DNA of 64,000 bases. Source: an uncultured Chloroflexia bacterium. GTDB lineage: Bacteria; Chloroflexota; Dehalococcoidia; UBA2247; RBG-13-53-26. Position 1 is the first letter of the stretch. Every line of letters begins with the position of its first letter. Positions 34,216 to 43,088 of the stretch are shown piece after piece. A program made the translations under genes and the position numbers. The notes under the pieces were generated by a model. It searched no databases and was not told where the DNA came from. It saw only the letters and a program-made list of their open reading frames with translations. The stretch spans positions 39,988 through 103,987 of the forward strand of contig CAVRFM010000015.1 in NCBI GenBank assembly GCA_963720375.1. The letters run 5' to 3'.

Positions 34216-34921
34216 GCCTCTTCCTCAAAATGATCTCTGCCAGGGCCAAGTCCTCCAGCGTGGTAATCTTAATATTATCATAGGAGCCCATGTAGACTCT
34301 GACCTTATACCCAAGTGCCTCCACCAGAGCGGCATCATCCGTCACTTCCCCTTTAGCCTGCCGATATGCCTCCGTTATTATATCAAAGCGAAACACCTGC
34401 GGGGTCTGTGCTACCCAGAGGTTTTCTCGCCGAGGGGTATTCCGGATTGTCCCCTCGGCTTCAACTATTTTTACGGTTTCCTTTACAGGTACCGCCGCAA
34501 TAGCCGCCCCGGTCTGACGGGCCTCCTCTAGCCCCTGCTCTATCAGATCAGGAGTGATGCAAGGACGCGCCCCATCATGAATCACCACCCAGTGGCAACC
34601 TCCCAGCCCTTTCAGCCCCTCGGCTACCGAATCCTGGCGCCGTTCTCCACCGGCGCATACCTGCGCCACCTTCTGAAACCTTCCTTCCTTTACCACCTCC
34701 CGCCCTCGCTCCAAGCTCACTTCATTCAGCACGATCACCACCTGATCCACTGCACCACATTTCTCAAACACTTCAAGCACATGAGCCAGGACCGATTTGC
34801 CAGCGATGTCAGCAAAAATCTTGTCCACCCCACCCATCCGCCGGCTACTGCCAGCGGCAGCAACAACAGCCCCCACCTTCTCCCGAGATAGCTTCCTCAC
34901 CTTGATAACCGCCTCCTGCAA
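34193..34921 (-). CDS. ispD: 2-C-methyl-D-erythritol 4-phosphate cytidylyltransferase
   Basis: VVAAAGSSRRMG motif. Overlaps ispF in the usual ispDF arrangement. Confidence 0.9.
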   Translation of the reverse strand: MQEAVIKVRKLSREKVGAVVAAAGSSRRMGGVDKIFADIAGKSVLAHVLEVFEKCGAVDQVVIVLNEVSLERGREVVKEGRFQKVAQVCAGGERRQDSVAEGLKGLGGCHWVVIHDGARPCITPDLIEQGLEEARQTGAAIAAVPVKETVKIVEAEGTIRNTPRRENLWVAQTPQVFRFDIITEAYRQAKGEVTDDAALVEALGYKVRVYMGSYDNIKITTLEDLALAEIILRKRHEGWHRL

Positions 34922-34939
34922 ATGCTAGAATGGCCTCGT

Positions 34940-35017
34940 GGTGGGCGTAGCCCAGCGGTTTAAGGCGCCAGGTTGTGGCCCTGGAGATCGAGGGTTCGAA
35001 TCCCTCCGTCCACCCCA
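34940..35017 (+). tRNA. tRNA-His (anticodon GTG) with genome-encoded G-1 and CCA
   Basis: Acceptor stem G-1/GTGGGCG pairs with CGTCCAC-C. Anticodon stem CCAGG/CCTGG with loop TTGTGGC. T-arm GAGGG-TTCGAAT-CCCTC. 3' CCA. Confidence 0.85.
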
Positions 35018-35094
35018 GCGCCTATAGCTCAGCGGATCAGAGCATCGGTCTTCGGAACCGAGGGTCGAGGGTTCGAATCCCTCTAGGCGCGCCA
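35018..35094 (+). tRNA. tRNA-Arg (anticodon TCG), starts at the base after the CCA of tRNA-His
   Basis: Acceptor GCGCCTA/TAGGCGC. D-stem GCTC/GAGC. Anticodon stem TCGGT/ACCGA with loop CTTCGGA. T-arm GAGGG-TTCGAAT-CCCTC. 3' GCCA. Confidence 0.85.
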
Positions 35095-35684
35095 TCTCTA
35101 CGAGCCAAGTTATGCCCATATTCGTGTCCATATTCCCTCACAAAATGCCCCTGATCAATGTCGCCGTCAGCATATTCTGACACTTTTGCTAACAATTTGC
35201 TAACCACCATACACACGGCCGATTCCATGCAGATCTTTTGCACACCCCCCGCAGCTTTGGGCTACCTCTATTATCCTCGCTGTTGCACACAATAGCATCT
35301 GCTTACTATCACTACTAAATAGGCCTGCTATCCATCCACAGAACGAAGAGAAATAGTGCAGTGATACTCATAATGCAGCTAATGTGCAGTGCTGCTGGCA
35401 CTGCCGAGATCATAGGAGTGAAAATGAGGACGTTCCTTAATTACTACTGATCTTTTGATCTTTGCCTGTTGCCTTCTCCAACTCTAGTAGGGTCTTTTAT
35501 CGACGGATTGCCCAAGGGTGTCAGCCCTATCTAGAGCGCTGATTTAGCCAAGGTAGCATTACATGAAGACTTACTGGGCTGTGCCCTGCAAATCAGACCA
35601 TCATTGAACCAACATGCGGCGGCTTGCCTGTGCTGGTGTCCTTTGTACGGAAGAAGAGGTGTGACTCCAAGGTCTAGAAACAAG

Positions 35685-36077
35685 CTATGCGTTTGCTGAG
35701 TGGGGCTTCTTTATTTTCATTACGCTGGCTCTAAAACGAAGATACTTCAAGTACTCTGTCAGTTCCTCAATTTCGTTAGGCGTGGCGGTTGAGAGAATAT
35801 CTGGTTGTGATTGGGGAGGCGTGTGGAAGGATATAATCCAGTCGAACTCGGGTGTGTAGCCAGCTTTCTTCTGCAAAACTTGCACTGGCACGCCGAGTAT
35901 GATTGCGAGTTGAAGTAACTCAGGTTGCCTCGGGCGCCTGTCACCTTTCTCCCATCGGCAGACGGTGCTGAGAGATCTGTGCACCTTCTCACCCAAGTCA
36001 TCCTGTGACATTGGGACTGGCTGTCCAAGCCTAGTCTCACGGAGAAGATCTCCGAATTCTTTCCAGCGGTTAGGCAT
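35685..36077 (-). CDS. HTH_XRE-family transcriptional regulator with a C-terminal extension, divergent from the HD-protein operon
   Basis: MSQDDLGEKVHRSLSTVCRWEKGDRRP...LLQLAIILGVPVQVL helix-turn-helix. Confidence 0.75.
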   Translation of the reverse strand: MPNRWKEFGDLLRETRLGQPVPMSQDDLGEKVHRSLSTVCRWEKGDRRPRQPELLQLAIILGVPVQVLQKKAGYTPEFDWIISFHTPPQSQPDILSTATPNEIEELTEYLKYLRFRASVMKIKKPHSANA

Positions 36078-36132
36078 GATGGTGAGACTCCTTGTTGATA
36101 CTGCGTTGCGATTTTATGTTCTTTTTTACTCT

Positions 36133-36173
36133 TTGTCAATACTTACGGCAACAATATTGACAAAATGTATAAT
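36133..36173 (+). promoter_or_regulatory. Perfect 9-bp inverted repeat TTGTCAATA-N13-TATTGACAA (candidate operator) abutting a TG-TATAAT extended -10 element for the downstream 146-aa / HD operon
   Basis: Inverted-repeat arms at 36133-36141 and 36155-36163. TG at 36166-36167 and TATAAT at 36168-36173. Lies in the divergent intergenic region between the XRE regulator and the operon. Confidence 0.5.
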
Positions 36174-36264
36174 AGTGGTAATCTGTTTGTTGTAAGGGCG
36201 TGGTTCCCCTATAATTGGAGCCCCACCGTCAGTCCGGTGGTCTCAGGAAGAAGGAGGTGGGATC

Positions 36265-36705
36265 TTGCCTAGGACAGTTAGTGCGGATTCCCAAACTGGG
36301 CACCTCACGCTCTATGATAGTGTTGTAGCAGCGATAGGGGGGATCCACGAGGATCAAGCTAGCATGCAAGATCAGAGGATCCCCGTGGAGGATTGCTACC
36401 GTGCCTTCAGCCTTCTTGCATCCGAGTTTCCAGAGAGCTTTCCGGGTGTCTATTTTTCCCGGCGGAGCGGAGTCCCATATTCCAGAGATATCGAGGACGT
36501 GTTGTTCCAGGCAGGGGCATGGAGGCTCATCGAAGATAATAACCCTGACTACCGATATTTCACAGTACCCGCGGCGACCAGAAGACTGATCAAGGAACAG
36601 CTGAGCAAGATTCACAGTGGCAAGACGGGGGATCTTGAGCAAGTCTCCCTACGATTCAAATCTGTGCTAGAGGAACTGAAGCGGGTTGAGTCCCACAGCC
36701 TGTGA
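36265..36705 (+). CDS. Hypothetical protein (146 aa) whose 3' end overlaps the start of the HD-domain gene
   Basis: ORF follows the extended -10 promoter. Overlaps the next ORF by 20 nt in a different frame, suggesting co-transcription. No recognisable motif. Confidence 0.55.
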   Translation: MPRTVSADSQTGHLTLYDSVVAAIGGIHEDQASMQDQRIPVEDCYRAFSLLASEFPESFPGVYFSRRSGVPYSRDIEDVLFQAGAWRLIEDNNPDYRYFTVPAATRRLIKEQLSKIHSGKTGDLEQVSLRFKSVLEELKRVESHSL

Positions 36706-38215
36706 CGCCCTAGCAGAAGAAGTGAACTCCGCGGTTACGGAGATCCTCGGTGACTATAAGCCAAGAAAGATCAGGGACCCCAAGGTCATCCGAGACACCG
36801 CATTTGGCTTTAACCTGTTCCACAAGCATGAGATCAACTTGCTCGATTCGCCGCTTATGCAGCGGTTGCGGCAAGTACGTCAGACGGCTCTAGCCTTCTA
36901 CACCTATCCCTCATCAGTGCATACGCGCTTCGAACATTCCCTTGGTGTCACTGTACTCGCGCAACGCATGCTAGATGCCCTTCGGCAGCGTAAACCCTCC
37001 ACCGCTAGTGATGTCGCCTGCATGGAGGTTCGCCTAGCTGCATTATTGCACGATGTCGGTCATGGTCCATTCTCCCACGCATCTGAAAAGGTCTACAGTT
37101 CCCTCGACCAAATTAAGCGGGCAAAGGAAGAGAACCCCCTGCTAAAAGACAATGAGGCGCACGAAATCCTTTCCTACTTTGTGATCAAGTCATCCAAGTT
37201 CAACGAACTGTGGAGCACCATTCTTGCGAAGTATCAATTGGGTGATAACCCCATCAACCTTGGCGAGATACGCCTTGATCATGTTGCCGAGATGATTCTT
37301 GGTCATCATCCAACGCCCCAACTTAAGTACTTAGCCCAGATTGTGAACGGTCCTCATGATGCGGACAAGCTTGATTACATTACGCGCGATGGTTATTTCA
37401 CTGGTTTACGAACGGCGATCGATCTAGATAGGCTCTTCCTATGTCTGGGGGTCTACGAAAGCGACTCCGGCGAATGCCAATTGTGTGTAGATTTGAGTGG
37501 TGTGACGGCACTTGAGCAGATGCTATTCAACAAGATGCAACTCTATACATCAGTCTATCATCACCATAAGGTTCGCGCGGCTTTCCGTTCGTGTGTTGCC
37601 ATCATTGATGCATGCCGTAACAAGAAGCTGAAGGCGATCGGAGGATCGGAACTCGGTAGTCCGGTTGATTTCATGAGGATCGACGACGGCGCTATTTTGA
37701 GCGCCCGATCGACAGGGGATGCTGACCTCGACAAATGTCTTGCCAATTTGCGAAATCGCATTCTTCCGATGCGTGCTCTGGTACTGTGCTCAGACTCAGT
37801 GGATGATAACGCCTCTCGTTTTCTTCTGGCACGTATGCGGCGGGATACCTCCACAGCCAACGCTCTGCGCGAAGAAATCGCAACCAGAGCTAAAGTCGAC
37901 AACTCGCACATTCTAGTTGATTTTCCGGAAGAGCCACGTTTCATGAGCACAGCGCTCGGCAGTCTTGTTAGGGTCAGTCCTCAAGATGTAGTCCGCCTCA
38001 ACTCGATATTTCCAGTAGGGGGATGGGTGAGAGGTCATGCTGAACACAGATACAGAGTGTATGTATTCAGTCCCTATGAGTCGGAAGAGGCAGTGGCGAA
38101 AGCAGCATACGCCATACTGAGAGAAAAGTACGGGATCAAACCAAACAAAATGGCCTTCTTCCTTGCCAACCATACGCCGACATTCGTGGCATCGCTCCAA
38201 CTGGGGAATTCGTGA
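36686..38215 (+). CDS. HD-domain dNTP triphosphohydrolase-like protein (dGTPase / SAMHD1-type HD phosphohydrolase), 509 aa
   Basis: HTRFEHSLGV...LLHDVGHGPFSH and GPHDADKLDYITRD motifs of the dGTPase-like HD family. N-terminal IRDTAFGF...QRLRQVRQ segment as in this family. Lower-GC context. Confidence 0.8.
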   Translation: MSPTACDALAEEVNSAVTEILGDYKPRKIRDPKVIRDTAFGFNLFHKHEINLLDSPLMQRLRQVRQTALAFYTYPSSVHTRFEHSLGVTVLAQRMLDALRQRKPSTASDVACMEVRLAALLHDVGHGPFSHASEKVYSSLDQIKRAKEENPLLKDNEAHEILSYFVIKSSKFNELWSTILAKYQLGDNPINLGEIRLDHVAEMILGHHPTPQLKYLAQIVNGPHDADKLDYITRDGYFTGLRTAIDLDRLFLCLGVYESDSGECQLCVDLSGVTALEQMLFNKMQLYTSVYHHHKVRAAFRSCVAIIDACRNKKLKAIGGSELGSPVDFMRIDDGAILSARSTGDADLDKCLANLRNRILPMRALVLCSDSVDDNASRFLLARMRRDTSTANALREEIATRAKVDNSHILVDFPEEPRFMSTALGSLVRVSPQDVVRLNSIFPVGGWVRGHAEHRYRVYVFSPYESEEAVAKAAYAILREKYGIKPNKMAFFLANHTPTFVASLQLGNS

Positions 38216-38285
38216 GATCGCAAGCGGTGCCAGTGCGATGGTACTACATTCGCCGCCTAAGTCCGTCAGCTTGCCCGCTATCCCT

Positions 38286-39200
38286 CTAGAGATCAACCTG
38301 GACGGAATTGTTGGTGCCGGCGCGTACCGCCATCATTTGTGAAGCATAACTCTCTGGCACTCGCATTTGATGGCCGAGTGCCGTCTTCTCATCAAAGCGA
38401 TGCACGGCGGCTTGCTGTAAACCCGGTGCAATATGGCTGTACGTGTCGAGCAAAAGTGATGGATATACTGGAATGCCACAGCTTGCCTTAAACGACTTTT
38501 GGGGTGTATTCCCTATTTGCCATATGGATGTAGACATAATCTCCAGGACTTGACGTCCTCTGCTAGCCGTCTGATATCATCCGAGGTGACTTCCAGTTAC
38601 ACGCATCCCGATAGTGCTTTTACACAACAAGTGCCCAATTGGGGCAAGGGCAAGACTACTCATCAAAGGGGGAGGTAGCAAATGGCGAGACAGTGTAAAA
38701 CAGTAGAGATAGTGTACAACGCAAGAGGTCGAGATGTCTTGACATGGTGTATAAAGACAGCTTTTCTCTCCTTGATAACACTGGGGTTCTACTTGCCTGT
38801 TGCCGCAAATAAGCTTGTGAGATATCTGTGCGAGCACACAAAGATACGCATAGACGAGTCAGAGGTCTCAGGAACGTAGTTCGCAGCCTTGGCTGCTAGC
38901 AACCTGCTGAACATGAAATGGCATTGGTTGGTATTTTACAGATCGAGTGTGTCACTACAGAGAGAATCTCATATCAGTCAACAAGACATAAAGTAAACCC
39001 CTTGACCTGGGAAACAGGGACGGTTGTAAACTCATGAAAGGCTTTTCGGGGGCAACCCTTCTAAATATAAATGGAACCAATCCTCAAGAGCAACGCAACA
39101 TAAAGATAAGCCCTTGACCAGCCCAAGGAGGGCAGTTCTATACTTATCAAGCCGCATCCTCGGAGAGAAGGCTTTATTCGGTAATTTCTCGCTTCTTAAC
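38286..39200 (-). pseudogene. Decayed tyrosine recombinase (phage-type integrase) gene remnant
   Basis: Minus-strand frames give ...PKVV*GKLWHSSISIT (LGHSSI box with an in-frame TAA), then a shifted frame gives LLDTYSHIAPGLQQAAVHRFDE (catalytic-Tyr box). Upstream frames are broken. No intact ORF over 90 aa. Confidence 0.5.
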
Positions 39201-39253
39201 TAATTCCGAATCCTCACGTCGCAGAGCAAGACTTTTTAGCTCTAAAGGGGGGT

Positions 39254-40570
39254 ATGAAAACAGCTAAAGAGACTTGGGAGACTGCCAAAGGGGCCCTTCA
39301 GGTTCAGGTTAGCAAAGCCAACTTCGACACTTGGCTAAAGGACACTGTAGGGATCAGTCACCAAGGAAATCAATTTGTAATCGGAACTCCCAGCGCTTTC
39401 GCCAAGGAATGGCTGGAAAAGCGTCTTCATTCTTTGGTAACGAAGGTGCTCATCAGCATTGTAGGGCATGAGATTGAGGTTCAGTTCCAGGTCTGCCCGG
39501 ACCAGGACTCTGTCTGGCAGGGCCAGGACCACTCACAATCGAAGCTGCCATTGCCAGTGGGCAACCCGAGGTATACTTTCGAAAACTTCGTTGTCGGGGG
39601 TTCAAACCGTCTTGCCTACGCTGCTGCATTGGGGATATCTGAGGAGCCAGGGCGGCAGTACAATCCGCTTTTCATCCACGGTGGATCCGGCCTGGGAAAG
39701 ACCCATCTTTCCCACGCGATAGGGAATGAAGCTTCCGAAAACGGATTCAAGGTCGTTTATACTGGCAGCGAGCAATTCACCAATGAGTTCATAAGTTCAA
39801 TCAGGGAGAGAAGGACAGAGGAGTTTCGCAGCAAATTCAGGAACGCTGACATTCTCGTCATAGAGGACATCCAGTTCCTGGTTGGCAAACCCTCGACACA
39901 GGAAACACTGTTTCACACCTTCAATGAACTGCATGACACCAATCGCCAGTTGGTTATCACCAGCGATCGCCCTCCAAAGGCGATGACTACCCTGGAGAGC
40001 AGCTTATGTTCCCGCCTCGAAAGCGGGCTTATTGCCCAAGTTGAAGCACCTGACCTGGAAACACGTTTGGCCATCCTTCACGCAAGGGCCGAGGAACAGC
40101 AGGTTGTCATCGACGAAGCCGTATTCGATTTCATCGCCCAGCGTTGCCAGCGAAATGTCAGGGAACTAGAGGGAGCCCTGACTGCGCTTATCGCCGATGC
40201 AAAGATGTCACAGCAGCGTCCTACACTGGAGCTGGCGCAGGAGGCTCTGCGCGATATGCCTTCGGATAATTTAGGCTCATATGCTACTACCCCGGCATCG
40301 ATATTGAAGGCAGTGGCCGACCACTTCCAGGTGAGTTTAGAATCCCTGAAAGGCCGTAAGAGAGACAATCGATTAGCCATGGCGCGACACATCGCCATCT
40401 ACCTTGTACGAGAGAAGACAAATTGCCCCCTGCAGGATATCGGCAAATTGCTTGGCGGCAGAGACCACTCCACTATTCTCAGGGGCTATCATAGAATCGC
40501 CGGCACAGTTTCTACTGATCCCGCAGTGCAGAGAAACATCCATCAGATTGTGGCTAATCTTCCCACTTAG
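39254..40570 (+). CDS. dnaA: Chromosomal replication initiator protein DnaA
   Basis: Walker A GGSGLGKTHL, AAA+ sensor motifs and the C-terminal DNA-binding HTH (ARHIAIYLVREKT...LGGRDHSTIL). Confidence 0.95.
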   Translation: MKTAKETWETAKGALQVQVSKANFDTWLKDTVGISHQGNQFVIGTPSAFAKEWLEKRLHSLVTKVLISIVGHEIEVQFQVCPDQDSVWQGQDHSQSKLPLPVGNPRYTFENFVVGGSNRLAYAAALGISEEPGRQYNPLFIHGGSGLGKTHLSHAIGNEASENGFKVVYTGSEQFTNEFISSIRERRTEEFRSKFRNADILVIEDIQFLVGKPSTQETLFHTFNELHDTNRQLVITSDRPPKAMTTLESSLCSRLESGLIAQVEAPDLETRLAILHARAEEQQVVIDEAVFDFIAQRCQRNVRELEGALTALIADAKMSQQRPTLELAQEALRDMPSDNLGSYATTPASILKAVADHFQVSLESLKGRKRDNRLAMARHIAIYLVREKTNCPLQDIGKLLGGRDHSTILRGYHRIAGTVSTDPAVQRNIHQIVANLPT

Positions 40571-41647: not shown

Positions 41648-42193
41648 TTGGATGCGCTGATGGATGGAGACGTATCAATGTCGCAGGAACGTGATAACGC
41701 TCTCACTAAGGTAGAACTGGCTCGCTACTTCCTCGAACTCATGAAACGTATTGAGAACAGCAGGGCACCTTTGCTACAGGGGAGCACTGCTCTGAGTGTC
41801 CTACAAGAGTACACTTCCTACTTGGATGGATTCTGGGCTGAGTGCTACAGTGCCACACGCTATTTCGATGATGTCAATCCTAAGTGTGCAAAGGCACTTA
41901 AAGACTTTCGAGAAAAAACGCAGGGAGATTTCTACGCATGGGGTACTGGTAAGCGTTCCATATCCGTTCACCACAAACCAGTTGAGCCAAAGAGGGAAGG
42001 CTATATGCCGCCACGAGGAGACAACATTGGTGGGCAACTCTTAGAATACGACCCCCCAAATTGGAACAAGATCAATTCCAAACTGAACGACTATTACTAC
42101 TTCACTGATGATCCTTCGGAGCAGCCGATAACTAGGCAGTGTGAGAGTCACTTAGCAGAACTAGAGAAGTTCATAAAGCAGAATTGTCCATGA
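41648..42193 (+). CDS. Hypothetical protein (181 aa; the start may be the Met at 41678)
   Basis: ORF with no recognisable motif. Lies upstream of, and co-oriented with, the protease gene. Confidence 0.5.
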   Translation: MDALMDGDVSMSQERDNALTKVELARYFLELMKRIENSRAPLLQGSTALSVLQEYTSYLDGFWAECYSATRYFDDVNPKCAKALKDFREKTQGDFYAWGTGKRSISVHHKPVEPKREGYMPPRGDNIGGQLLEYDPPNWNKINSKLNDYYYFTDDPSEQPITRQCESHLAELEKFIKQNCP

Positions 42194-42227
42194 CTGGCAC
42201 CTATGAGGCAAGATAAAATGAATATCA

Positions 42228-43088
42228 TTGATCGGGGATATCAATATGCGCGTACCTGACGAGGTTCGCCAATGCGTCGTGTTTGTGGGGCTTGGAGACG
42301 GCAAGGGAGGAGTGTCATTCAAAGGGACAGCTTTCTTCGTTAGTGTACCTTCCAAGAGCAAACCTGAAGTTAGTTACCTATACTTGGTAACAGCCAAACA
42401 TGTGGCAGCCTTACTGCAAGACAAACCATTCTTAATCCGAGCCAACACGAATGATGGGAAGTCATGCGTAATTGGAGGCGCAAGAGTACATTGGTGGTAT
42501 CATCCCACCGATCCTTTCGTAGATGTAGCCATCATCTCTTGGGTACACCCCGAAAACATGCCCCTTGACTATCTTGAATACAAACACATTCCAACTACAA
42601 TGTTTTTGTCCGATGAAGCTATATATAGTCGTGCTATCGGCACAGGGGATGAGGTATTCATCACTGGGCTTTTTGCACATCTGACAGGCTCATCAAGAAA
42701 CCTGCCAATAGTCCGCATTGGCAACATAGCCATGTTCCCTACAGAGCCAGTACCGACACGTATCGGCAACATCGAAGCTTATTTGATCGAAGCTAGATCA
42801 ATTGGAGGTTTAAGTGGTTCTCCTGCCTTTGTCATCCAAACAGCTCCACCTGAAGTTGGCAAGCTTTACCTTTTGGGATTGATGCATGGTCACTGGGATA
42901 TCCCCCCAGAGGCAAAGAACGACCAACTGGTAATGGACAATGATCACTATAAGCAGGTGAATATGGGCATAGCGATTGTAATTCCAGCTAAGAAGATATT
43001 GGAGGTTATGAACCAAGAAATACTAGACACATGGAGAAGACTAGAGGATCAGAAGATGCAGAAAGAACAAGTACCACCGCCAATGTGA
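42228..43088 (+). CDS. Trypsin-like (chymotrypsin-fold, S1-type) serine protease
   Basis: Catalytic-triad context VTAKHV (His), DVAII (Asp) and GGLSGSP (Ser). Confidence 0.65.
   Translation: MIGDINMRVPDEVRQCVVFVGLGDGKGGVSFKGTAFFVSVPSKSKPEVSYLYLVTAKHVAALLQDKPFLIRANTNDGKSCVIGGARVHWWYHPTDPFVDVAIISWVHPENMPLDYLEYKHIPTTMFLSDEAIYSRAIGTGDEVFITGLFAHLTGSSRNLPIVRIGNIAMFPTEPVPTRIGNIEAYLIEARSIGGLSGSPAFVIQTAPPEVGKLYLLGLMHGHWDIPPEAKNDQLVMDNDHYKQVNMGIAIVIPAKKILEVMNQEILDTWRRLEDQKMQKEQVPPPM

What the first reader, a model, noticed from the sequence alone, without database searches (positions are those of the whole stretch)
36078..36264. Palindromic operator overlapping an extended -10 promoter in the divergent region between the XRE regulator and the HD operon
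TTGTCAATA-N13-TATTGACAA (36133-36163) is a perfect 9-bp inverted repeat. It is immediately followed by TG-TATAAT (36166-36173). This is the expected layout for autorepression or repression of the cargo operon by the adjacent HTH_XRE protein. It resembles the regulator-controlled architecture seen in several defence islands.
Basis: seen in the sequence. Interest (0 to 1): 0.5.

Follow-up and report, generated by a model that had tools for sequence, protein, structure and literature searches.

The report
Twin operator of an XRE repressor
The inverted repeat is real and is the inner part of a conserved pair of 15-bp binding sites, 32 bp apart, through which the neighbouring XRE regulator most likely shuts off both its own promoter and that of a dNTP-hydrolase-like (HD) operon; this is an ordinary kind of switch in an undescribed regulator family.

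Summary
The sequence is as described: TTGTCAATA-N13-TATTGACAA (10/10 over 36132-36164) and TGTATAAT (36166-36173). A perfect repeat of this size is not rare in the window (5 found, 1.2 expected). The significance comes from comparison. Upstream of 16 relatives of the 130-aa XRE protein (45-57% identical) lie two 15-bp palindromes, TTGACA-AWWW-GTMW, 32 +/- 1 bp apart, with an unconserved linker. A matrix built only from relatives ranks the window's sites (36125-36139, 36157-36171) first and second in 64 kb.

The XRE promoter is TTGACA-17-TAAAAT. The cargo promoter is TTGACA-16-TGG-TAATCT (36157-36184).

The sites follow the regulator, not the cargo. They are absent where the same HD operon has no regulator or a different XRE.

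The divergent genes are, where identifiable, nucleotide-pool genes: SAMHD1-like HD, pyrE, pyrF, dcd, dNK or kinase-deaminase. They sit near dnaA/nadD/gyrB in Dehalococcoidia-like genomes, so this looks more like a core nucleotide-metabolism regulator than a defence-island one.

The parts
35685..36077 (-). XRE-family regulator gene (130 aa): N-terminal HTH followed by C-terminal helices, with the family-invariant motif KAGYTPEFDW
   Evidence: ORF. Pfam HTH_31 and HTH_3 above cut-off. 19-member family alignment A1. AlphaFold model with pLDDT 81.5: helices 6-72 (HTH), 76-85 and 100-123.
36088..36093 (-). Shine-Dalgarno AAGGAG of the XRE gene, 10 nt before the ATG
   Evidence: Read directly from the sequence.
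36111..36116 (-). -10 hexamer TAAAAT of the XRE promoter
   Evidence: Promoter scan: TTGACA-17-TAAAAT, 11 of 12 matches.
36134..36139 (-). -35 hexamer TTGACA of the XRE promoter.
   Evidence: TTGACA is near-invariant at this position in relatives.
36125..36139 (-). Operator O_P (XRE-proximal), TTGACAAAGAGTAAA on the minus strand. It covers -35 to about -21 of the XRE promoter.
   Evidence: PWM 17.7 bits, second best in the window. Aligned with relatives.
36140..36156 (.). 17-bp linker between the operators. Its length is conserved and its sequence is not.
   Evidence: Spacing is 32 bp in 13 of 17 loci and 31 or 33 bp in 4. Mean pairwise linker identity is 0.31.
36157..36171 (+). Operator O_D (cargo side), TTGACAAAATGTATA. 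It covers -35 to about -21 of the cargo promoter.
   Evidence: PWM 20.9 bits, best in the window.
36157..36162 (+). -35 hexamer TTGACA of the cargo promoter.
   Evidence: Invariant in the cargo-direction alignment of 14 loci.
36176..36184 (+). TGG-TAATCT: the family-conserved (extended) -10 of the cargo promoter, 16 nt after the -35
   Evidence: Aligns with TGC-TAATCT (L005) and TGC-TAAACT (L002), and with a TAnnnT element in most relatives. Inferred, not mapped.
36166..36173 (+). It is the degenerate outer half of O_D (consensus ATGTCAA) and a possible alternative extended -10.
   Evidence: Present. Not conserved at this position in relatives; only L014 has a loosely similar TGTAT.
36253..36259 (+). 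Shine-Dalgarno GGAGGTG, ending 5 nt before the TTG start of the first cargo gene
   Evidence: Read directly from the sequence.
36265..36705 (+). First cargo gene: a 146-aa protein of unknown function, the conserved partner of the HD enzyme
   Evidence: Homologues sit next to HD genes in L007, L011 and L012 (A2). Family of 93 clusters, mostly Chloroflexota/Dehalococcoidia. No Pfam, PADLOC or NCBIfam hit. No significant fold match.
36686..38215 (+). Second cargo gene: a 509-aa SAMHD1-like HD phosphohydrolase (HD + HD_assoc_2) that overlaps the first gene by 20 nt
   Evidence: Pfam. PDB sequence matches to SAMHD1 and bacterial HD dNTPase-like proteins, E 1e-31 to 1e-19. The H..HD..D motif is visible in the translation.

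Best explanation
The 187-bp intergenic region holds two back-to-back sigma-70-type promoters whose -35 hexamers (TTGACA) face away from each other. Each -35 is the inner half of a 15-bp palindromic operator of consensus TTGACA-AWWW-GTMW. O_P (36125-36139) overlaps the promoter of the XRE gene. O_D (36157-36171) overlaps the promoter of the 146-aa/HD operon.

The 130-aa XRE protein most likely binds each palindrome as a dimer. The two dimers sit 32 bp (about three helical turns) apart on the same face of the DNA and probably bind cooperatively through the C-terminal helices. Occupying -35 to about -21 of both promoters keeps RNA polymerase off. The result is negative autoregulation plus repression of the HD operon until an unknown signal releases the repressor.

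Shown here: the sites, their conservation, their fixed spacing, their overlap with promoter-like elements, and their strict association with this regulator family. Inferred: binding by this protein, dimer or tetramer stoichiometry, repression rather than activation, the transcription start points, and the inducing signal.
For: (1) Sites exist and are far above chance. The relatives-only PWM gives 20.9 and 17.7 bits, the top two of the window; the next is 10.8 and shuffles give 0.04 per window.

(2) Phylogenetic footprint. In 16 other loci encoding 45-57% identical regulators, the same two palindromes lie directly upstream of the XRE gene while surrounding DNA and the linker are unalignable. 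Spacing is 32 bp in 13 loci, 31 bp in 2 and 33 bp in 2.

(3) The outer half-site (GT at 2.0 bits, then C/A and A/T) lies in the promoter spacer, where RNA polymerase needs no specific sequence. It is nevertheless better conserved than the bases flanking the -35 on the inner side.

(4) The sites follow the regulator, not the cargo. They are present with HD, pyrE, pyrF, dcd, RNaseH-like+dNK and kinase-deaminase cargo. They are absent (PWM <13 bits) where the same small-protein+HD operon has no XRE (L134-L137) or a distant XRE with a different recognition helix (L129-L131). Across 197 kb of control loci with generic HTH genes there is 1 hit.

(5) Both promoters are near-consensus and need no activator: TTGACA-17-TAAAAT, 11/12, and TTGACA-16-TGG-TAATCT.

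(6) The protein is a standard Cro/cI-type HTH with a helical C-terminal extension. The family profile aligns over its full length to SinR, a tetrameric repressor (E 7.6e-4).
Against: There is no experimental evidence of binding, of transcription starts or of regulation.

The window's own operators are the less perfect members of the set. The outer halves are GTAT and GTAA instead of GTCA, so affinity could be reduced.

TTGACA invariance is also what a -35 box alone would show, so part of the conservation is not specific to a repressor.

Promoter consensus rules are taken from E. coli-type sigma-70 and are assumed to hold in this (probably Chloroflexota) organism.

One family locus (L008) shows only one site. 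The DNA pattern alone also occurs in unrelated viral contigs without such a regulator.
Confidence: 0.75

Rival explanations
1. One operator consists of the 9-bp arms separated by 13 nt and is bound by a single regulator dimer. The cargo operon is transcribed from the extended -10 TGTATAAT at 36166-36173.
For: The arms are a perfect 10/10 repeat in the window. TGnTATAAT is a perfect extended -10 by the E. coli rule. The outer half-sites are degenerate in this window, so here the inner arms carry most of the symmetry.
Against: The half-site centres would be about 22 bp apart, too far for one HTH dimer (established knowledge of Cro/cI-type operators, which span 14-20 bp; compare PMC12255303). The last three bases of each arm (ATA/TAT) are poorly conserved in relatives, whereas the outer GT(C/A) is conserved. 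The arm-to-arm distance varies by +/-1 with the linker. TGTATAAT is not conserved in relatives, and a TAnnnT -10 is found 16-18 nt after the TTGACA instead.
Confidence: 0.1
2. There is no operator. The symmetry is only two consensus -35 hexamers of divergent constitutive promoters placed back to back.
For: Both arms contain TTGACA, and promoter-like -10 elements follow at 16-17 nt. Loci without this regulator (L129, L134) also have TTGACA-type promoters at this position.
Against: This does not explain conservation of the outer GT(C/A)(A/T) inside the promoter spacers, the A/T-rich centre, or the fixed 32 +/- 1 bp spacing. Promoter-only TTGACA sites in the regulator-less or other-regulator loci score 12.0, -0.6 and -5.1 bits, against 17-25 bits for family sites.
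Confidence: 0.05
3. The sites are bound by another regulator encoded elsewhere, for example a nucleotide-responsive repressor such as NrdR. The XRE gene is merely one of its targets.
For: The geometry resembles NrdR sites: two partly palindromic boxes with a linker conserved in length only, 31-32 bp period (PMC13584703). The cargo genes all act on nucleotide pools.
Against: NrdR boxes are 16 bp with even symmetry and critical C4/G13. These sites are 15 bp with odd symmetry and C5/G11. The sites occur only next to this XRE family and vanish when it is absent, although the cargo and chromosomal position stay the same. No other site reaches 11 bits in the 64-kb window.
Confidence: 0.05
4. The XRE protein binds the sites but works as an activator or dual switch, like restriction-modification C-proteins, rather than as a plain repressor.
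For: The closest structural matches of the HTH domain include C.BclI, C.AhdI and C.Esp1396I. These bind two adjacent palindromes and first activate, then repress (PMC2504287).
Against: The sites overlap the -35 and spacer of promoters that already match the consensus, which is the position of repressors. C-protein operators are adjacent, lie upstream of a co-directional C-R operon and accompany RM genes, none of which applies here.
Confidence: 0.04
5. The inverted repeat acts as a nucleic-acid structure (an RNA hairpin or terminator, or a DNA cruciform) rather than as a protein-binding site.
For: As single-stranded DNA the region folds better than shuffles (z = -3.35), which is trivially expected of any inverted repeat.
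Against: The repeat lies between the two -35 boxes, so neither promoter transcribes it. There is no T-run. The arms are conserved in sequence with no compensatory changes, and the loop is 13-15 nt. There is no Rfam match. The cargo leader folds no better than shuffles (z = -0.82) and is not conserved.
Confidence: 0.01

Closest known systems
Cro/cI-type (XRE, Pfam HTH_3) phage and element repressors with operators at divergent promoters (lambda, 434, P22 c2; ImmR of ICEBs1)
   Same: Same DNA-binding fold. Palindromic operators of about 15 bp overlap core promoter elements of two divergent promoters. The regulator controls its own gene and the opposite operon, and cooperative binding of dimers to separate operators is likely.
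   Different: There is no Cro-like antagonist, no peptidase or self-cleavage domain, and no ImmA-type partner next to it. The gene looks chromosomal and vertically inherited rather than phage-borne: no full-length relative was found in 2.9 million viral contigs. There are two operators exactly three turns apart, rather than three adjacent ones.
NrdR and its paired NrdR boxes
   Same: Two partly palindromic boxes with a linker conserved in length but not in sequence and a 31-32 bp period, repressing genes of deoxynucleotide supply (PMC13584703; PMC12051234).
   Different: The protein is unrelated (Zn-ribbon + ATP-cone versus XRE HTH). The box differs: 16 bp with C4/G13 versus 15 bp TTGACA-N3-TGTCAA. 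The targets here are not ribonucleotide reductases. The similarity is one of working principle, not of membership.
Defence-operon regulators CapH(+CapP), CapW/BrxR and RptR
   Same: A small regulator encoded beside, often divergent from, the operon it represses. CapH likewise has an N-terminal HTH and a C-terminal oligomerisation domain that forms dimers and tetramers (10.1101/2022.04.27.489752). RptR binds repeated short palindromes over its promoter (PMC12255303). One relative (L010) controls a homologue of the anti-phage kinase-deaminase (PADLOC dCTPase, E 3.5e-58).
   Different: There is no CapP-like peptidase partner and no WYL domain. Most cargo here is housekeeping-type nucleotide metabolism (pyrE, pyrF, dcd) at a conserved origin-proximal position. 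The window's HD enzyme does not meet the anti-phage dGTPase models.
Restriction-modification controller (C) proteins and C-boxes
   Same: They are the best structural matches of the HTH domain (C.BclI, C.AhdI, C.Esp1396I). Two dimers bind two palindromes and autoregulate (PMC2504287).
   Different: There are no RM genes. The operators are 32 bp apart rather than adjacent. The layout is divergent. The protein is about 50 residues longer, with a family-specific C-terminal region.
SinR of Bacillus subtilis
   Same: HTH plus a C-terminal helical multimerisation region. The family profile aligns to SinR over residues 8-116 (E 7.6e-4). SinR is a tetramer that binds paired sites (established knowledge).
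   Different: The similarity is weak. The recognition sequence and regulon differ, and no SinI-like antagonist was identified.

Membership tests
XRE / Cro-cI-type HTH transcription factors (Pfam HTH_3, HTH_31) | Five-helix Cro/cI-type HTH domain recognised by the family models | tested here: met
   HTH_31 33.2 bits (cut-off 27) and HTH_3 29.8 bits (cut-off 23). PDB profile hits to ImmR, P22 c2, 434 repressor and SinR. Fold hits to C-proteins and ClgR.
XRE / Cro-cI-type HTH transcription factors (Pfam HTH_3, HTH_31) | Palindromic operator of about 14-20 bp at the regulated promoter | tested here: met
   15-bp palindromes TTGACA-N3-TGTCAA over both -35 boxes, conserved in 17 loci.
XRE / Cro-cI-type HTH transcription factors (Pfam HTH_3, HTH_31) | Demonstrated sequence-specific DNA binding by the protein | not testable with these tools
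   Needs EMSA or footprinting. Only co-occurrence evidence is available.
CapH/CapP defence regulators | Adjacent CapP-type metallopeptidase that cleaves the HTH repressor | tested here: not met
   No peptidase gene flanks the XRE gene in the window or in relatives.
CapH/CapP defence regulators | C-terminal oligomerisation domain required for DNA binding | tested here: inconclusive
   C-terminal helices 76-85 and 100-123 are predicted. The oligomeric state was not computed.
Restriction-modification controller (C) proteins | Encoded with, and controlling, restriction and modification genes through adjacent C-boxes | tested here: not met
   Cargo is a 146-aa protein + HD enzyme in the window and nucleotide enzymes in relatives. 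The operators are 32 bp apart and the layout is divergent.
NrdR regulon (NrdR boxes) | 16-bp box with conserved C4, A6, A8, T9, T11, G13 | tested here: not met
   The sites are 15 bp with odd symmetry, with C at position 5 and G at position 11, against the consensus in PMC13584703.
NrdR regulon (NrdR boxes) | Two boxes separated by a linker of fixed length (15-16 bp) and free sequence | tested here: met
   17-bp linker (16-18 bp), mean identity 0.31, period 32 +/- 1 bp. This is an analogy only.
Anti-phage dGTPase (nucleotide-depletion defence), for the HD cargo | Full-length match to the defence dGTPase models | tested here: not met
   PADLOC dGTPase matches residues 55-136 only, E 4e-8. NCBIfam antiphage_dGTPase scores 22.7 bits against a cut-off of 400.
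SAMHD1-like HD dNTP triphosphohydrolases, for the HD cargo | HD domain with the H..HD..D motif plus the HD_assoc_2 C-terminal region | tested here: met
   PF01966 and PF19276 above cut-off. SAMHD1 and bacterial homologues at E 1e-31 to 1e-19. The motif residues are visible. Enzymatic activity is not testable here.

The most novel reading that the evidence does not exclude
This XRE family (invariant KAGYTPEFDW motif) may be a lineage-specific master switch for nucleotide-pool enzymes in Dehalococcoidia-like Chloroflexota. It would be a functional analogue of NrdR or PyrR built on a Cro/cI fold. It sits beside the replication origin and uses a three-turn twin operator to gate whichever pyrimidine or dNTP enzyme lies opposite it (pyrE, pyrF, dcd, dNK, SAMHD1-like dNTPase, or the kinase-deaminase known from phage defence). 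It would respond to a nucleotide or replication/damage signal through its small C-terminal region. If so, housekeeping pyrimidine genes and dNTP-depleting 'defence-type' enzymes would be under one shared control logic.
Probability: 0.3. Interest if true: 0.55.

Novelty: new member of a known kind. Interest (0 to 1): 0.35.

Why it matters
As a mechanism it is textbook: an XRE repressor sits on the -35 boxes of its own promoter and a divergent one. Its value is practical. It gives a precise, testable operator model (15-bp palindrome, invariant TTGACA and GT, 32-bp phasing) for an uncharacterised regulator family found so far only in uncultured Dehalococcoidia-like bacteria, where experimentally characterised regulator-operator pairs appear to be few.

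It also predicts a regulon theme. Every identifiable gene opposite the regulator acts on nucleotide pools, and these include both housekeeping pyrimidine genes and relatives of dNTP-depleting anti-phage enzymes. That could help decide whether origin-proximal SAMHD1-like dNTPases in these bacteria serve metabolism, replication control or defence.

Tried and rejected
- RNA element in the intergenic region or leader: no Rfam match at E <= 1. The leader fold is no better than shuffles (z = -0.82). Leaders of five HD-type loci share nothing beyond the operator and -10.
- Hairpin or terminator reading of the repeat: rejected on position and lack of covariation.
- Mobile-island reading (tRNA-Arg ... 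integrase): no direct repeats >=14 nt across 34900-39300. The ORF at 38286-38537 looked to me like a recombinase C-terminus but has no Pfam hit even at E <= 1.
- NrdR boxes: the consensus does not fit.
- DnaA boxes (E. coli consensus) near the skew minimum: no cluster, and the count is not above chance.
- Phage origin of the regulator: only HTH-domain-level matches in viral contigs.
- Searching the twin-palindrome pattern in viral contigs returned 87 stretches. The 80 fetched lie mostly upstream of chaperone genes and lack this regulator, so they are an unrelated regulon.
- Function of the 146-aa partner: no family hit. The model is moderate (pLDDT 70.7) and no fold match is significant (best E 0.19).
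- Looking for pyrE, pyrF, dcd or gyrB in the window to test for further operator copies: none lie within the 64 kb.
- Correlating recognition-helix residues with outer half-site variants (GTCA, GTAA, GTAT, GACA): no clear pattern by eye.

Full report
OBSERVATION. The intergenic region 36078-36264 lies between a 130-aa XRE-family gene on the minus strand (35685-36077) and a plus-strand operon. The operon has a 146-aa ORF (36265-36705) and a 509-aa HD-domain ORF (36686-38215). The perfect repeat is in fact 10 + 10 nt (36132-36164).

Such a repeat is not remarkable on its own. The window has 5 perfect inverted repeats with arms >=10 nt and loops <=20 nt, against 1.2 +/- 1.0 in dinucleotide shuffles. 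For arms >=9 nt the figures are 11 against 4.3.

A promoter scan finds TTGACA(36139..36134)-17 nt-TAAAAT(36116..36111) on the minus strand, 11 of 12 consensus matches, aimed at the XRE gene. The left arm of the repeat is therefore a -35 box. By symmetry, the right arm contains TTGACA (36157-36162) facing the cargo operon.

COMPARATIVE EVIDENCE. The XRE protein belongs to a small, sharply defined family: 19 clusters at 45-57% identity, with an invariant KAGYTPEFDW motif after the HTH. I fetched DNA for relatives from metagenomes, one Dehalococcoidia MAG and Logan assemblies.

Each arm extends outward into its own palindrome. Anchored alignments give the consensus TTGACA-AWWW-GTMW. On the cargo side TTGACA and the outer GT are invariant; on the XRE side they are nearly so (1.4-2.0 bits per position).

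Including the window, 17 loci have two such sites. Start-to-start spacing is 32 bp in 13, 31 bp in 2 and 33 bp in 2. The 16-18-nt linkers are unrelated, with mean pairwise identity 0.31. One locus (L008) shows a single site.

A matrix built from 26 sites of 13 relatives, with the window excluded, scores the window's sites 36157-36171 (+) at 20.9 bits and 36125-36139 (-) at 17.7 bits. These are the two best of the whole 64 kb. The next best is 10.8 bits, and shuffles yield 0.04 hits per window at that level.

In the window the outer halves are the weaker variants GTAT and GTAA. These variants recur in other loci (L005, L006, L013, L014, L140, L141).

PROMOTER GEOMETRY. On the XRE side, a TATAAT-like -10 follows the operator's TTGACA by 16-18 nt in the relatives, as in the window. 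On the cargo side, a TAnnnT element follows TTGACA by 16-18 nt and in about half the loci is preceded by TG.

The window's TTGACA(36157-62)-16 nt-TGG-TAATCT(36176-84) aligns with TGC-TAATCT in L005 and TGC-TAAACT in L002. It occupies the position of the outer half-site (consensus ATGTCAA becomes ATGTATAA here) and has no counterpart in the relatives apart from a loose resemblance in L014.

It could still act as an extra extended -10 in this genome; only start-site mapping can tell. A protein on O_D would cover either element.

WHO BINDS. Three natural controls tie the sites to this regulator rather than to the cargo or the chromosomal position.

(a) The cargo changes while the sites stay. The cargo types are:
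- small protein + HD enzyme (window, L007, L011, L012, L140)
- pyrE plus a 107-aa protein (L002, L006, L015; TIGR00336 above cut-off)
- pyrF (L003)
- dcd plus a HEPN protein (L005; TIGR02274 above cut-off)
- an RNaseH-like protein plus deoxynucleoside kinase (L004, L009, L138)
- a kinase-deaminase matching the PADLOC dCTPase model at E 3.5e-58 (L010)

(b) The same small-protein + HD operon occurs without the sites when the regulator is missing (L134-L137). It also occurs without them when the regulator is replaced by a distantly related XRE with a different recognition helix and no KAGYTPEFDW (L129-L131). All of these score <13 bits. L132/L133, which carry a true family member, have the pair 32 bp apart.

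(c) 26 loci with generic HTH genes (197 kb) give a single hit at >=14 bits.

Promoter-only TTGACA sites in the control loci score 12.0, -0.6 and -5.1 bits, against 17-25 bits for family sites.

THE PROTEIN. Pfam HTH_31 and HTH_3 are above cut-off. The AlphaFold model (pLDDT 81.5) shows the five-helix HTH (6-72) followed by helices 76-85 and 100-123. Structural and sequence neighbours are RM controller proteins, ClgR, P22 c2, 434 repressor, ImmR and, over the full length though weakly, SinR. No peptidase, WYL or ligand-binding domain is recognisable, and no partner gene is constant.

MECHANISM (inferred). Two dimers occupy O_P and O_D, three helical turns apart on one face, probably cooperating through the C-terminal helices. 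Each covers -35 to about -21 of a near-consensus promoter, so the protein should repress both its own gene and the cargo. The fixed period with a free linker sequence parallels the NrdR box pair, where the linker is constrained in length only (PMC13584703; PMC12051234). The boxes themselves differ: 16 bp with even symmetry and C4/G13, versus 15 bp with odd symmetry and C5/G11. The inducing signal is unknown.

BIOLOGICAL CONTEXT. The regulator behaves like a vertically inherited core gene. In relatives it sits in the block gyrB - [cargo] - XRE - (pyrE) - nadD - obg - dnaA. Its pairwise identities broadly track those of nadD, and the pyrE opposite it in L002 is as diverged from L003's pyrE (56%) as nadD is (54%), so that pyrE is the housekeeping orthologue.

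In the window the module lies between tRNA-His/Arg (34941-35094) and dnaA (39254-40570). Nearby are nadD, dut and a thymidylate-synthase-like gene. The cumulative GC-skew minimum is at about 35.2-35.6 kb.

The HD enzyme is SAMHD1-like and does not meet the anti-phage dGTPase models. Its 146-aa partner is a family of 93 clusters. The named members are mostly from Chloroflexota/Dehalococcoidia MAGs (one is labelled Syntrophomonadaceae), and no function could be assigned.

On the other hand, one relative's cargo is a close homologue of a known defence enzyme (L010), and a type I restriction gene lies near one locus (L129). A defence role for some cargoes therefore cannot be excluded.

No full-length family member was found in viral contigs.

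COMPARISON AND NOVELTY. The switch works like classical Cro/cI-type repressor-operator systems at divergent promoters, and like the small regulators found beside defence operons: CapH (10.1101/2022.04.27.489752) and RptR (PMC12255303). It is a member of the XRE superfamily. It is not a member of the C-protein, CapH/CapP or NrdR systems, because defining features were tested and not met.

No source in the protein database gives the family a functional name beyond the generic XRE-family label, and I found no paper describing it. I rate it a new member of a known kind. The most interesting open reading is that it is a lineage-specific regulator of nucleotide-pool enzymes next to the origin.

LIMITS. 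Everything about binding, stoichiometry, direction of regulation and start sites is inferred from sequence comparison. Promoter rules are borrowed from E. coli-type sigma-70. The relatives come mostly from short metagenomic contigs, some of them closely related to each other (L003/L009, L004/L009/L138, L012/L132).

Noticed in passing
L042-L121 (IMG/VR viral contigs), e.g. L119:2219-2264, L054:14098-14141, L052:3907-3951: The pattern TGAC-W5-GTCA, 18-20 nt, TGAC-W5-GTCA matches 87 stretches in viral contigs. In the 80 fetched, the sites mostly lie just upstream of ClpB/ClpA-like AAA+ genes (40 loci), a 169-aa UVR-motif protein (36 loci), Hsp20-like genes (26 loci) or DnaK (2 loci). This looks like a heat-shock/chaperone operator in an AT-rich lineage. 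No relative of the window's regulator is nearby (only L083 has HTH ORFs)..
   Followed up: partly
L004:2267-2281, L009:5089-5103, L015:5089-5103: A third operator-like site, TTGACAAATCGTCAA (18.9 bits), lies inside the XRE coding sequence at +88, where it encodes the conserved LDKSS. It may be a coding coincidence or an auxiliary operator. It is absent from the window's gene. L004 and L140 also have extra weaker sites on the cargo side.
   Followed up: no
L138:4907-4953 and L139:3506-3552: Both operators of one locus carry the same deviation from the otherwise invariant GT (TTGACAAAAAGACAT twice). This is a concerted change in the two sites.
   Followed up: no
L129:5469-5870 (also L130, L131): A distantly related XRE (E 2e-16 to the family profile) occupies the same position opposite the same small-protein + HD operon. 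It has a similar C-terminal motif (EELANYLTYLDF) but a different recognition helix and no KAGYTPEFDW. Its intergenic region has back-to-back -35-like boxes but no family operator.
   Followed up: partly
L134:5466-5822: Where the XRE gene is absent, a 118-aa protein sits between nadD and the small-protein + HD operon on the same strand. It has only a weak HTH_17 (excisionase-like) match, E 0.025.
   Followed up: no
window 35095-35684 and 38216-39253: The cumulative GC skew reaches its minimum at about 35.2-35.6 kb, in the 590-bp gene-free gap between tRNA-Arg and the XRE gene and about 4 kb from dnaA. This suggests the replication origin is close by. No cluster of E. coli-type DnaA boxes was found.
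   Followed up: partly
window 38286-38879: Between the HD gene and dnaA lie apparent gene remnants. One is an 83-aa ORF whose C-terminus (LLDTYSHIAPGLQQAA) looked to me like the end of a tyrosine recombinase but has no Pfam hit. The other is a 65-aa fragment matching only the last 50 positions of DUF898.
   Followed up: partly
window 41648-43088: Two ORFs of 181 and 286 aa lie between nadD and dut and have no Pfam or NCBIfam hit. By eye the 286-aa protein has a trypsin-like serine-protease pattern. It was not examined further.
   Followed up: no
L002:134-457, L006:904-1227, L015:3937-4263: A conserved protein of about 107 aa with no known family (motif NLWELA...DDPHPLPFFVMRQVF) always follows the pyrE gene that lies opposite the regulator. 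This parallels the small partner of the HD enzyme and the HEPN partner of dcd in L005.
   Followed up: no
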